64,000 bases of DNA from the IMG/VR virus record IMGVR_UViG_3300014206_000010, positions 1 to 64,000 of that record; one strand, given 5' to 3'. Positions 26,041-58,787 of the stretch are shown here, in pieces. This stretch comes from a virus. Taxonomy: Duplodnaviria; Caudoviricetes. The notes under the pieces are model-generated. The model did not search any database and was not told where the DNA came from. It saw nothing but the letters and a program-made list of their open reading frames with translations. The translations under genes were made by a program, and so were the position numbers. Positions within the stretch are counted from its first letter, which is position 1. Each line of letters starts with the position of its first letter.

Positions 26041-27756
26041 TTAATCTTCTCCTAATAATAATGTTTCTGCTTTTTCCAAAGTCATATCTTCTTCAAAGAA
26101 ATCATTTTCTTGAGCCTTAAAAGTATTTGGCGTTGCTTGTTTTTTGTCACCCGATGTTTCTATTTCTTCTTCTGAAAATAAATCTTCGGCTTTTTTTAAT
26201 TCATTTGAATTAGTTTCATCCAATAAAATATCTTCAGCCTTAACAAGCTCTTCTGAAGATTCTGAAGAATCTCCAAAATCAAGTTTAGCAGCTTTGGTTA
26301 ATATTGCTGTTGCTTTTTCTCTCCAATCCTTAATTTTTGAACCAATTAAAGAAGCAAATGCTGGATTTTTACGTTTTTCATTTGCTTTATCAACTTTACG
26401 TTTATTGATTAAAACTTCTTGAAAAGTTCTTGTTGTAAATTGAGCTGGATCAATATTATTTTCATCTTTCTTTATAATCCCTAAAATTTCATCACGTTCT
26501 TTTCTATCGTCAGCTTCATTATCAAGTCTTGGAGCCTGCTTGAACTCAAAATCTTGATAACGATTTTCTATAACTTGAATTGTTTCTGGCACAGTCATAT
26601 AAATTTCAGAAACCATCATAGCTCTACTTATGATTGCTTTTGTATCTTCACTTTCAGAAAGAGTAGTTAAATCTTTATTAGTCATTATTACAATGCGACC
26701 AGTAAATTCAAAATTTTGTTTAATGTCATCAGGGTCACCAACTATACGTGCTCCAGTAGATGCAGTTGCTTTCTTCATAACAGCCGCACAATCACTTCTT
26801 CTTAAGACCTTATCATTATCATCAAAGATAATAATTTTATTGTTATGAGCTTTAAGAATATTCAATAATTGTTTTCCACTATTAACATCAGGTGCTTCAA
26901 ATGTATCATAATCATCATCTCCTGGTGCGTCTCCTACTCCAAATGGTTTAAGATTCAAAAGTTCAGCCATTTTCTTAAATCCGTAAGATTTACCAACACC
27001 AGCTCCTCCTGCTGAAATCATAAATCTTTGTTCATTATTATCCAAGAATTCAAGATATTGTTCATTTAAGTCTTGAACAACCTCTACTGGATCCATGTAG
27101 TCTTTTTCTTTTTTCTTCATCTTATAAACAAATTGATCATATTTTATACGACCTTCTTTTGTTTTAAGATTGAACATTTTTTTTACCCTATCGTCATTTC
27201 TGTCAAGATACCATTTTTCAGTTATTTTGTCACCTTCATCTACACCTCCATCAGTATCTATTTCAGCAGCAACATCTGAATTATCTACTGTATCTTGATC
27301 ATCTGAAGTTGAAGTATCATTTGTTTTAGCTCCTACATTACCAGTCATCTTCATTAATTGAATAAGAGTTCCTGAAGTATCAACTTTAGACATATCAAAA
27401 TTTCTTCTTCCAAGTTCATCATACGCTATCTTACGCATTTGAGCATTACCATTTTTACTATTAGCAACCTTTAAAAGATTATCATCAGAAGTTTTGGTTG
27501 CCCAGATTGCTAATCGTTGAGAATCCATAGGTTTACTCTGACCTTTAACCTTAGCATTTGCTATCTGTTGAGTAGTAGGTTTTGAAGAAGTTTGATTTGA
27601 AGATACATTAGAATCTTTTGATTGAGTTTTATTTTTAATTGGACGCCAATCATATTTTCCTGATTTGTATTCAGTCCAAGCCCATTTACCATTTGGGTGA
27701 ACGTCACCCACTTGTCTTTTAATAGCTTTTTCAATTAAATCTTTTTCCTTTGTCAT
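26041..27756 (-). CDS. AAA+-type P-loop ATPase with N-terminal Trp-rich module and acidic xxKA-repeat tail
   Basis: Walker A GGAGVGKS, Walker B IIIFDD, 'FEFTGRIVIMTN'. Confidence 0.7.
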   Translation of the reverse strand: MTKEKDLIEKAIKRQVGDVHPNGKWAWTEYKSGKYDWRPIKNKTQSKDSNVSSNQTSSKPTTQQIANAKVKGQSKPMDSQRLAIWATKTSDDNLLKVANSKNGNAQMRKIAYDELGRRNFDMSKVDTSGTLIQLMKMTGNVGAKTNDTSTSDDQDTVDNSDVAAEIDTDGGVDEGDKITEKWYLDRNDDRVKKMFNLKTKEGRIKYDQFVYKMKKKEKDYMDPVEVVQDLNEQYLEFLDNNEQRFMISAGGAGVGKSYGFKKMAELLNLKPFGVGDAPGDDDYDTFEAPDVNSGKQLLNILKAHNNKIIIFDDNDKVLRRSDCAAVMKKATASTGARIVGDPDDIKQNFEFTGRIVIMTNKDLTTLSESEDTKAIISRAMMVSEIYMTVPETIQVIENRYQDFEFKQAPRLDNEADDRKERDEILGIIKKDENNIDPAQFTTRTFQEVLINKRKVDKANEKRKNPAFASLIGSKIKDWREKATAILTKAAKLDFGDSSESSEELVKAEDILLDETNSNELKKAEDLFSEEEIETSGDKKQATPNTFKAQENDFFEEDMTLEKAETLLLGED

Positions 27757-54923: not shown

Positions 54924-55373
54924 TTATAACGCTTTTTGACTAATAATTTTCATTTGTTTCATTATCTTCATACGATAATTTTGAGATGCTTTAGGATTAT
55001 GAAGTTTTATTGCTTTGTTTATATCTTTATCTAGATTATAATGATTTTGTAATATGTTAAACATTTCTAAACTCTTCTTTTTATCAGTACGACAATCAAG
55101 AGTAAATTTATTTTCACCAATAATACGATTTACATCTTTAACAAAGATAGGAGTTATTTGTAAAATTCCTACATCGTTTTTCGTTCCAATAGCTTCAGGA
55201 TTACCCTTGCTTTCTACTTGAATAAGAGCTTTTACAAATAATTCCCATTCACTTTTACTTTCACATTTTGTTACTTTTTTCTTTGGAATGATTATTCTTA
55301 TTTCTTGAGTATGTATTCCTAAATTACAACTTGATATTAAAAATATAATACTCGTTAAAATCAATTTTTTCAT
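54924..55373 (-). CDS. Lytic transglycosylase (SLT) with lipoprotein signal
   Basis: 'ALIQVES', 'GILQI'; lipobox ISS-C at Cys16. Confidence 0.75.
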   Translation of the reverse strand: MKKLILTSIIFLISSCNLGIHTQEIRIIIPKKKVTKCESKSEWELFVKALIQVESKGNPEAIGTKNDVGILQITPIFVKDVNRIIGENKFTLDCRTDKKKSLEMFNILQNHYNLDKDINKAIKLHNPKASQNYRMKIMKQMKIISQKAL

Positions 55374-55455: not shown

Positions 55456-55485
55456 AAAAAAAAAGGGGCAACTTTCGCTTGCCCC
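55456..55485 (-). terminator. Terminator closing the tmRNA transcript
   Basis: GGGGCAAGC-GAAA-GTTGCCCC plus T9. Confidence 0.85.
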
Positions 55486-55797
55486 AAATTTCGGTTCACG
55501 CAACGGCTCTTAGCTGTTGAGGGAACATTTGAATTATTTTGCCTGTTATTGGCTTGTAAGTACTCCACAAATCATACTTATATGCTGTCAAATCCATTCA
55601 CCCCCTTAAAAAATGATCGGATTGGCTTTTCATCTCCCCTTAGGTGAGTTTTGCATTCCGTTAGGCATTCCACCGATCATTTTTAAACACCGTACTATCG
55701 CGACGGATTAACGCATAATTGGCTGCTATGGTGGAGGTGACGGGAGTCGAACCCGTGTCCAAACATACTTTACTAAATGTATCAACGTACTTACTTC
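55486..55797 (-). ncRNA. ssrA: Circularly permuted (two-piece) tmRNA: acceptor piece ~55797-55729, intervening segment 55728-55606, coding piece from 55605
   Basis: T-arm and acceptor GGACACGGGTTCGACTCCCGTCACCTCCACCA precede GGGGGTGAATGGATTTGAC; 7-bp acceptor stem with G3.U70 and A73; two P2 helices; tag frame 55543-55496. Confidence 0.9.
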
Positions 55798-55799
55798 AT

Positions 55800-55958
55800 T
55801 TATAACTTTGCTAAAATTAATAACCGAATTATAATTAAAAATAACAATATAATACATAATATGTACGCTTTCTTATCAGAACTTTTAATAACTTGTTTAA
55901 TGTCCTCTCTAATAGCTTTATTTTCCTGAACTTCTTTATTCTTCTTTACTTTAAACAT
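55800..55958 (-). CDS. 52-aa protein with C-terminal TM (not in ORF track)
   Basis: MFKVKKNKEVQENKAIREDIKQVIKSSDKKAYILCIILLFLIIIRLLILAKL. Confidence 0.45.
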   Translation of the reverse strand: MFKVKKNKEVQENKAIREDIKQVIKSSDKKAYILCIILLFLIIIRLLILAKL

Positions 55959-58160: not shown

Positions 58161-58718
58161 TTATTGATGGGGATGTTTCTGTATGAAGAATGTCATACTT
58201 TCAGTTTCCGAACAGCTTTTACGGATTTCTTCCCAACTCTGACAATAACCTTCTATTTCTATAAAATCACCATTCCAACCGTTCACTGAATAAGAATAAT
58301 GAGTAAGCGGTCTCCAATTAGGATGTTTTTCAAAGTCTTTTGATTTTCCAGTTTTAGAATTTTCTATTGTCGTAGAACAACTTCCTATACGTCCCATTAA
58401 ATATGACCACCTGTTACAAACTCTAATATCAGTTTCTTTACCGAATTTGTTATACCAAAGTTTACATTCTTCTTTTGTTAAATCATGTTTTGTGCCGTTG
58501 ATAAAAGATTTTTTATTTTTGAAAGCAACCTTTTCTTCTACTTTAGGTTCTTCTGATTTAGGTTCTTCCAATTTAGGTTCTTCTACTTTAGGTTCTTTTG
58601 CTTTGGTAGATTGAGTCTTAATAGTTCTCCAGTCAAATTTTCCTTTAGAATATTCAGTCCAAGCCCATTTACCGTTTGAATGAACATCTCCAACTTTTCT
58701 TGAATTATTTGCTTTCAT
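58161..58718 (-). CDS. Early protein with N-terminal Trp-rich module and EEPK repeats
   Basis: 'RKVGDVHSNGKWAWTEYSKGKFDWR'; 15-nt tandem repeats at ~58530-58595. Confidence 0.6.
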   Translation of the reverse strand: MKANNSRKVGDVHSNGKWAWTEYSKGKFDWRTIKTQSTKAKEPKVEEPKLEEPKSEEPKVEEKVAFKNKKSFINGTKHDLTKEECKLWYNKFGKETDIRVCNRWSYLMGRIGSCSTTIENSKTGKSKDFEKHPNWRPLTHYSYSVNGWNGDFIEIEGYCQSWEEIRKSCSETESMTFFIQKHPHQ

Positions 58719-58756: not shown

Positions 58757-58787
58757 CAAAGATAATACTTTTTTAGCAAACGGCAAA
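58757..58787 (-). promoter_or_regulatory. Bacteroidota-type promoter
   Basis: TTTG-N19-TATCTTTG. Confidence 0.8.

What the first reader, a model, noticed from the sequence alone, without database searches (positions are those of the whole stretch)
55465..55797. Circularly permuted two-piece tmRNA gene in a Bacteroidota phage
The minus strand reads: 5' leader with GTAAGTAC and GTATGTT; then GGACACGGGTTCGACTCCCGTCACCTCCACCA (T-arm, acceptor 3' strand, encoded CCA ending at 55729); a 123-nt spacer; GGGGGTGAATGGATTTGAC (G1 at 55605); AGCATAT...GTACTTAC; the tag frame; and a terminator. GGGGGUG pairs with CACCUCC, including the G3.U70 alanyl identity pair and discriminator A73. Two P2 helices link the pieces (AGCATAT 55586-80 / GTATGTT 55768-62; GTACTTAC 55563-56 / GTAAGTAC 55794-87). 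The 3' half is encoded before the 5' half, which defines permutation. Established: two-piece tmRNAs are known from Alphaproteobacteria, some Betaproteobacteria and Cyanobacteria, and some mitochondria; Bacteroidota ssrA genes are, as far as I know, one-piece; phage tmRNAs are uncommon. An independent permutation in a phage of this phylum would be remarkable. No smpB is visible here, so the RNA presumably uses host SmpB to redirect ribosome rescue, for example to counter tRNA/mRNA-cleaving defences.
Basis: partly seen in the sequence, partly recalled or inferred. Interest (0 to 1): 0.92.

Follow-up and report, generated by a model that had tools for sequence, protein, structure and literature searches.

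The report
Pseudoknot-free two-piece phage tmRNA
This phage, which very probably infects Bacteroidota, carries a real back-to-front ("two-piece") gene for tmRNA, the RNA that frees stalled ribosomes; phage two-piece tmRNAs are already known, but this small family seems to come from the host phylum's own one-piece gene, has lost all pseudoknots, and is not described as a lineage in any paper I could search.

Summary
Confirmed: every coordinate is right. Rfam's permuted-tmRNA model matches end to end (62 bits, cut-off 47), and other assemblies give the same order. I found 58 distinct related genes; relatives include cultured phages Panino and MA9V-3 and crAss-like phages. Three helices join the two pieces (89% of cells paired, 0/500 shuffles as high), with a kink-turn pattern between two of them. 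The tag, (A)GKIIQMFPQQLRAVA, is under purifying selection. No pseudoknot remains and no smpB is present. Sequence favours descent from a Bacteroidia one-piece gene, which would be a separate permutation. The tests are only moderate (AU p 0.02-0.09), and cyanophage two-piece genes also lack room for pseudoknot 1. This scan has noted the family before, in at least 90 other genomes. Likely role: a working trans-translation RNA that uses host SmpB. Expression, processing and any anti-defence role are untested. Verdict: new variant of a known kind.

The parts
55800..55811 (-). Candidate promoter element just upstream of the gene
   Evidence: Motif CAAAGTTATAAA, kept in syntenic relatives; similar GCAAAGTT motifs precede other genes. 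Function inferred; start site not mapped.
55729..55796 (-). Acceptor piece (about 67-70 nt): P2 3' strand, T arm, acceptor 3' strand, A73 (55732), encoded CCA
   Evidence: Its 5' end is inferred. CCA is encoded in only 3 of 58 family genes.
55787..55794 (-). Distal linker helix, acceptor side (pairs with 55563-55556)
   Evidence: 6 of 8 pairs show changes on both sides
55781..55786 (-). Kink-turn pattern, bulged strand: 3-nt bulge GTT then GA (partner GA at 55565-55564)
   Evidence: In register in 17 of 20 aligned genes; automatic search 18 of 22 against 2.5 in shuffles. Sequence pattern only; the fold is inferred.
55775..55780 (-).
   Evidence: 5 of 6 pairs with changes on both sides, 72% paired
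55760..55768 (-). Proximal linker helix, acceptor side (pairs with 55587-55580)
   Evidence: 6 of 8 pairs with changes on both sides, 91% paired
55740..55756 (-). T arm
   Evidence: 100% paired in 20 genes, 3 of 5 pairs with double changes
55606..55728 (-). Intervening segment, 123 nt, predicted to be removed; folds as two hairpins
   Evidence: 13-242 nt and largely unconserved in relatives
55456..55605 (-). Coding piece (at most 150 nt): acceptor 5' strand from G1, 12-nt D-loop region, P2 5' strand, 12-nt linker, tag frame, terminator; no pseudoknot evident
   Evidence: ends inferred
55496..55543 (-). Tag reading frame: (A)GKIIQMFPQQLRAVA, stop TGA; weak hairpin over its 3' half
   Evidence: same frame called by ARAGORN in relatives; pN/pS 0.36 in this frame against 0.82 and 0.63 in the other two
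55456..55485 (-). Intrinsic terminator (7-bp stem and U run) directly after the stop codon
   Evidence: most GK-tag relatives have a similar hairpin and U run within about 45 nt of the stop
54924..55373 (-). Downstream neighbour: SLT-domain protein (context, not part of the RNA)
   Evidence: PF01464; homologues lie near the gene in relatives

Best explanation
A functional, phage-encoded, circularly permuted ssrA gene of a compact family carried by Bacteroidota phages, most likely derived from a Bacteroidia one-piece gene. Shown from sequence: gene order, alanine identity elements, three covarying helices between the pieces, a conserved resume context, a tag frame under selection, a terminator, and no smpB. 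Inferred from known two-piece tmRNAs: one precursor of about 345 nt folds the tRNA-like domain; host RNase P cuts at G1 (55605); 3' nucleases and, in most relatives, the CCA-adding enzyme free the acceptor end; the spacer is lost. A piece of about 70 nt and one of at most 150 nt stay paired, are charged with alanine, and enter non-stop ribosomes with host SmpB and EF-Tu. Translation resumes at GGC, adds the tag and ends at UGA. Pseudoknots 1-4 are gone. The distal helix ends 12 nt before the resume codon, about where pseudoknot 1 normally ends, and a kink-turn probably bends the linker so that it takes over that positioning role (inference). The tag ends in small hydrophobic residues and probably still sends proteins to ClpXP or Lon. 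Most likely purpose: keeping ribosome rescue going while host RNA is broken down in infection. Countering RNA-cleaving defences is one possible case of this, untested.
For: RF04321 full-length match. 58 distinct genes with the same order; 51 share the same 7-bp acceptor stem and all have A73. 88.8% of cells paired, 20 of 34 pairs with double changes, 0/500 shuffles, slid controls 43-52%. Tag pN/pS 0.36 and 0.29 in two subgroups, lowest in the tag frame. Present in cultured Bacteroidota phages Panino and MA9V-3 and in crAss-like cr50_1 and cr10_1. Origin: 12-nt D-loop region, UUGAC and Gly resume codon shared with Bacteroidia, not with alpha, beta or cyano genes; tree groups family and Bacteroidia at 99/97. 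The 34 nt before GGAC are 55% identical without gaps to Bacteroidia one-piece genes (shuffled 30%) and at chance against alpha (22%), beta (24%) and cyano (30%). Pseudoknot 1 can be replaced by a stable hairpin in E. coli (PMC3968760).
Against: The tree rests on 84 columns and does not make the family monophyletic (not rejected either, p 0.149); a clade with the cyano type is not clearly rejected (p 0.087 and 0.042). D-loop and resume region are SmpB contacts and could have converged on the host. Only 6 Bacteroidia references were not pattern-selected, and I grouped them by those same features. The cyano type is represented only by four cyanophage genes. Reviews state that E. coli tagging needs pseudoknot 1 or a substitute. 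The tag differs from the host type (GENNYALAA).
Confidence: 0.72

Rival explanations
1. The RNA is made and processed but acts against the host system: it binds SmpB or AlaRS, or out-competes host tmRNA and adds a tag that is degraded slowly, so that phage proteins from stalled ribosomes survive.
For: A tRNA-domain-only form like that of phage DS6A inhibits tmRNA, perhaps by titrating SmpB (PMC4131195; PMC11915505). Tags differ from host tags and vary at the C terminus (RAVA, RAVV, SIAV, RQFA). Pseudoknot 1 is missing.
Against: The tag frame, resume context and stop are conserved and under purifying selection, which a pure decoy would not need; most tags still end in Ala or Ala-Ala. This argues against a decoy, less against an altered-fate tag.
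Confidence: 0.15
2. Same function, different history: the gene shares its permutation with the cyanobacterial (or beta) two-piece lineage, moved between phages and was then fitted to Bacteroidota SmpB. It would not be a new permutation.
For: Cyanophage two-piece genes also put the resume codon 62-70 nt from G1, leaving no room for pseudoknot 1. Their tags contain an IVxF motif resembling the GK-type tags. Three of four show a GTT-GA kink-turn pattern. AU p 0.087 on the full alignment.
Against: The P2 3' strand matches Bacteroidia and is at chance against cyano and beta. The cyanophage kink-turn has the opposite orientation. AU p 0.042 without SmpB-contact columns and 0.021 for family plus beta plus cyano. 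A one-piece gene with a GK-type tag and apparent pseudoknot 1 exists on a phage-like contig in a Flavobacterium bin (L031).
Confidence: 0.11
3. An artefact or relic: mis-assembly of a one-piece gene, or an attP-type ssrA fragment beside a dead 5' half.
For: ssrA 3' ends are common integration sites (PMC11915505). One Logan contig starts exactly at the T arm, a graph branch point.
Against: Identical order in other assemblies and in cultured phage genomes; covariation between the upstream leader and the downstream piece; no tyrosine integrase in the 89% complete genome.
Confidence: 0.02

Closest known systems
Permuted tmRNA calls in Bacteroidota phages: crAss-like cr50_1 and cr10_1 (Suoliviridae; Table S1 of PMC9004378), Maribacter phage Panino (PP540027, PMC11590407), Chryseobacterium phage MA9V-3 (PV245944)
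   Same: Same order, compact coding piece, Gly resume codon, resume at +59 to +62. Panino also has the kink-turn pattern.
   Different: Listed only as program calls or as 'SsrA'; the Panino paper does not mention permutation. No lineage, structure or origin described. crAss and MA9V-3 copies lack the kink-turn pattern. The table's Cellulophaga phi4:1 call was not confirmed (15.6 bits, no ARAGORN call at that hit).
Cyanobacterial two-piece tmRNA (RF01851) and its cyanophage copies (S-CAM1, S-SSM7, S-CRM01)
   Same: Permuted; resume codon 62-70 nt from G1, so no room for pseudoknot 1; long tags; kink-turn pattern in three of four phage copies.
   Different: 13-nt D-loop region, UCGAC, Ala resume codon, structured region after the tag, kink-turn in the opposite orientation, no P2 sequence similarity. 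The window has no reported RF01851 match.
Alphaproteobacterial (RF01849) and betaproteobacterial (RF01850) two-piece tmRNA; phage copies such as Melnitz
   Same: Permuted gene, two pieces joined by pairing; the beta type often shares the acceptor-stem sequence.
   Different: Resume at +82 to +86 with pseudoknot 1 kept, Ala-Asn tag start. RF01850 gives only 31.7 bits (cut-off 84) on the tRNA domain.
One-piece Bacteroidia ssrA (RF00023)
   Same: 12-nt D-loop region, UUGAC-AGC, Gly resume codon, colinear P2 3' strand.
   Different: One piece of about 370-400 nt, pseudoknots present, resume at +93 to +104, short YALAA or AMAA tags.

Membership tests
tmRNA (ssrA) | 7-bp acceptor stem with G3.U70, discriminator A73, NCCA end | tested here: met
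tmRNA (ssrA) | T arm, unpaired D-loop region with GG, no anticodon arm | tested here: met
tmRNA (ssrA) | Tag frame with conserved resume context and in-frame stop | tested here: met
   UAACA before GGC; selection on the frame
tmRNA (ssrA) | Pseudoknot 1 between P2 and the resume codon (usual, not universal) | tested here: not met
   Only 12 nt between helix end and resume codon; +62 against +82 to +104 in most groups
tmRNA (ssrA) | Alanylation, SmpB binding and tagging | not testable with these tools
   Needs experiments
Permuted (two-piece) tmRNA, RF04321 | 3' half encoded upstream of 5' half, with an intervening segment | tested here: met
Permuted (two-piece) tmRNA, RF04321 | Pieces joined by covarying helices | tested here: met
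Permuted (two-piece) tmRNA, RF04321 | Precursor processed to two stable pieces | not testable with these tools
Alpha two-piece lineage (RF01849) | Lineage model over cut-off, alpha T loop, pseudoknot 1, Ala-Asn tag | tested here: not met
Beta two-piece lineage (RF01850) | Lineage model over cut-off, resume near +85, Ala-Asn tag | tested here: not met
   31.7 bits against 84
Cyano two-piece lineage (RF01851) | Lineage model over cut-off; UCGAC; Ala resume codon | tested here: not met
Cyano two-piece lineage (RF01851) | Common descent of the permutation | tested here: inconclusive
   AU p 0.087 and 0.042; P2 identity at chance
Kink-turn | Paired stem, 3-nt bulge, tandem G.A and A.G pairs | tested here: met
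   Sequence pattern in 17 of 20 and 18 of 22 genes, shuffles 2.5
Kink-turn | Kinked three-dimensional fold; ion- or L7Ae-induced folding | not testable with these tools
   Needs probing or a structure

The most novel reading that the evidence does not exclude
A further, independent tmRNA permutation that arose in Bacteroidota phages and is not found in their hosts. It yields a fully pseudoknot-free but active tag-adding tmRNA of about 200 nt, in which an intermolecular kink-turned helix replaces pseudoknot 1, and whose phage-specific tag changes the fate of rescued proteins or offsets RNA-cleaving defences.
Probability: 0.3. Interest if true: 0.75.

Novelty: new variant of a known kind. Interest (0 to 1): 0.52.

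Why it matters
Two-piece tmRNA is known from three bacterial lineages and some mitochondria, and its repeated appearance has been read as a benefit of opening the RNA loop on the ribosome. A probable further origin, found here only in phages and phage-like contigs while host chromosomes keep the one-piece gene, allows a direct comparison of both forms in one cell with one SmpB. A natural tmRNA without pseudoknots tests what trans-translation minimally needs. Cultured carriers exist (Panino, MA9V-3), so why phages carry tmRNA can be tested. Default ARAGORN misses this copy and several relatives, so the family is undercounted.

Tried and rejected
ARAGORN: no call at default; relaxed to 80% it gave a wrong frame. 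Two strict gapped patterns found nothing in viral contigs; shorter ones worked. A relative search with the SLT protein gave no viral loci. A covariance model could not be built (alignment over 400 columns). My first identity comparison was misregistered by one base and was redone with anchoring. 'No pseudoknot 1 is unique to this family': rejected, cyanophage genes share it. 'The spacer is a remnant of host pseudoknots': rejected, best z 2.8-4.4 among some 80 targets with poor alignments. Cellulophaga phi4:1 permuted call: not confirmed. Bacteroides phages SJC03 and DAC16, the nearest by capsid, have no RF04321 match. The Atlas search on the upstream 446-aa protein was uninformative. The original papers on the beta and cyano lineages are not held; statements on them rest on reviews, Rfam models and my own comparisons.

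Full report
Observation. The 3' part of the tRNA-like domain (T arm, acceptor strand, A73, CCA ending at 55729) lies 123 nt upstream of the 5' part (G1 at 55605). The two form a 7-bp acceptor stem with G3.U70. Rfam RF04321 (permuted tmRNA) matches 55496-55791 over its whole length at 62.2 bits, cut-off 47. That model can also pass one-piece gammaproteobacterial genes at 49-65 bits, so the segment order is the real proof. ARAGORN does not call this copy. An ENA contig is identical across the gene, and a Logan contig holds T arm, spacer and G1 in the same order.

The phage. The genome is 88 kb, 29% G+C and 89% complete, with SPO1-like capsid, sheath and portal genes and no tRNAs. The capsid's best matches are Bacteroides phages DAC16 and SJC03 (44%) and Chryseobacterium phage MA9V-3 (38%). 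Three near-identical promoter-like sites of the Bacteroidota type (TTTG, then TAnnTTTG) lie just upstream of genes at 58787, 54342 and 41933. Only 8 of 84 genes have a Shine-Dalgarno-like word, and 76 have a purine at -3, as in Bacteroidia (own knowledge). A Bacteroidota host is therefore very likely, though no CRISPR or culture evidence exists. No smpB was found here or in two near-complete relatives, and no tyrosine integrase.

The family. Pattern scans of viral and metagenome contigs, MAG contigs and phage records gave 58 distinct permuted genes. Spacers run from 13 to 242 nt. The acceptor stem is the same in 51, and CCA is encoded in only 3, so the host CCA-adding enzyme must normally be used. 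One subgroup has tags starting GK and includes this gene, syntenic relatives and the cultured Maribacter phage Panino. A second, from other viral contigs that share little with this phage, has tags like GEQVELAMAA. MA9V-3 and the crAss-like phages cr50_1 and cr10_1 carry similar genes. Cellular Bacteroidota keep the one-piece form: 0 of 151 genomes pass RF04321 and 43 of 46 have a standard gene. The two MAGs with a permuted copy also have their own one-piece gene, which fits phage contigs binned with bacteria; I did not check those contigs' genes.

Structure. Three helices link the pieces, not two. On 20 aligned genes 88.8% of cells pair, 20 of 34 pairs change on both sides, no shuffle of 500 reaches this, and slid partners give 43-52%. 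The structure was drawn from these sequences, so the controls lean in its favour, but the double changes are many and spread over four helices. Between the middle and distal helices lies a kink-turn pattern (3-nt bulge and GA on the acceptor piece, GA on the coding piece), in register in 17 of 20 genes and found automatically in 18 of 22 against 2.5 in shuffles. I found no paper on a kink-turn in tmRNA in one search. The resume codon is 62 nt from G1, against 82-86 in alpha and beta two-piece genes and 93-104 in Bacteroidia one-piece genes. Only 12 nt separate the distal helix from the resume codon, so pseudoknot 1 is absent. The terminator follows the stop codon almost directly, so pseudoknots 2-4 are absent too. 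The tag frame is (A)GKIIQMFPQQLRAVA; pN/pS is 0.36 in this frame against 0.82 and 0.63 in the others, and 0.29 against 4.5 and 1.8 in the second subgroup (short and related sequences, so a rough measure).

Mechanism. By analogy with two-piece tmRNAs, which work in Caulobacter and are probably processed by RNase P and tRNA 3' enzymes (PMC3985003), one precursor is cut at G1 and after NCCA. The pieces stay paired, are charged with alanine and use host SmpB and EF-Tu to rescue non-stop ribosomes and add the tag. E. coli pseudoknot 1 can be replaced by a stable hairpin (PMC3968760). I infer that the kinked distal helix fills this role. All steps beyond the gene anatomy are inferred, and no RNA data could be obtained. 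The likeliest purpose is to keep ribosome rescue running as host RNA decays. An anti-defence role is possible and untested. An inhibitory or altered-tag role, as with the tRNA-domain-only RNA of phage DS6A, remains the main functional rival.

Origin. The family shares a 12-nt D-loop region, UUGAC and a Gly resume codon with Bacteroidia; alpha, beta and cyano genes have 13 nt, UCGAC and Ala. An 84-column tree joins the family with Bacteroidia one-piece genes at 99/97 and places beta and cyano types together elsewhere. The 34 nt before GGAC align without gaps to Bacteroidia genes at 55% (shuffled 30%) and at chance to alpha, beta and cyano genes; most of this stretch lies away from the D-loop and resume region. 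AU tests are moderate: family plus cyano p 0.087, or 0.042 without D-loop and resume columns; family plus beta plus cyano p 0.021; family alone p 0.149. Cyanophage two-piece genes also lack room for pseudoknot 1 and have a kink-turn pattern, but in the opposite orientation. A separate permutation is thus favoured (about 0.75 in my judgement), and more than one event within Bacteroidota phages is not excluded, since the GE-tag subgroup is at chance with this gene in the same stretch.

What is known. The 2025 database paper recognises alpha, beta and cyano permuted types and holds 79 phage genes and 48 permuted calls among 29,415 Bacteroidota genomes, without describing a Bacteroidota-phage type (PMC11915505). 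Buchholz et al. 2022 found tmRNA in 2.3% of 18,146 phage genomes, 53 of 133 unique ones two-piece, and their Table S1 lists 13 crAssphages as permuted (PMC9004378). The Panino paper notes SsrA but not its form. So permuted tmRNA in Bacteroidota phages is present in public data and tables, but I found no description of it as a lineage, nor of its structure. This scan has recorded the family in at least 90 other genomes; those notes are unchecked and are not counted as support.

Verdict. A real feature and a new variant of a known kind. The probable separate origin, the loss of all pseudoknots, the kink-turn pattern and the cultured carriers still make it worth a specialist's attention. Interest 0.52.

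Noticed in passing
L031:2869 onward (4-kb phage-like contig in a Flavobacterium MAG): One-piece tmRNA with a GK-type tag, an apparent pseudoknot 1 and an insertion in the T loop that looks like a group I intron with an HNH-type ORF nearby; a possible unpermuted relative of the family. A Thg1-like ORF lies upstream (by eye).
   Followed up: partly
Spacers of L005, L007, L141, L144, L155, L158, L163: A conserved element of about 55-60 nt ends the spacer of close relatives; the window's spacer keeps at most its first few bases. Not a pseudoknot remnant by my test; role unknown.
   Followed up: partly
L181 and L182 (crAss-like cr50_1, cr10_1): The spacer holds a T-arm-like hairpin and further conserved hairpins, like a tRNA fragment; RAGATH-22 and RAGATH-9 RNAs lie nearby.
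   Followed up: no
L291, L293, L295 (cyanophages S-CAM1, AG-345-P14, S-CRM01): Kink-turn pattern in the linker of cyanophage two-piece tmRNAs, with the bulge on the coding piece.
   Followed up: partly
L004, L008, L101-L140 (GE-tag subgroup): AGUA/GAA loop motif in place of the kink-turn (26 of 34), very short spacers (13-19 nt) and a conserved paired region after the stop codon that may be a pseudoknot.
   Followed up: partly
window 58787-58755, 54342-54310, 41933-41900 (-): Near-identical Bacteroidota-type promoter repeats, probably early promoters; a fourth, slightly altered, lies at about genome position 82759.
   Followed up: partly
window 58161-58718 and 26041-27756 (-): Two proteins share an N-terminal motif (GDVHxNGKWAWTEYxxGKxDWR); not examined.
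   Followed up: no
genome G000 69723-88416 (outside the window): Several related ORFs starting with a GIY-YIG-like motif lie among replication genes, two of them splitting probable DNA polymerase III alpha and DnaB-type genes; judged by eye.
   Followed up: no
L132: Permuted gene whose tag frame appears much longer (insertion before the usual LAMAA end).
   Followed up: no
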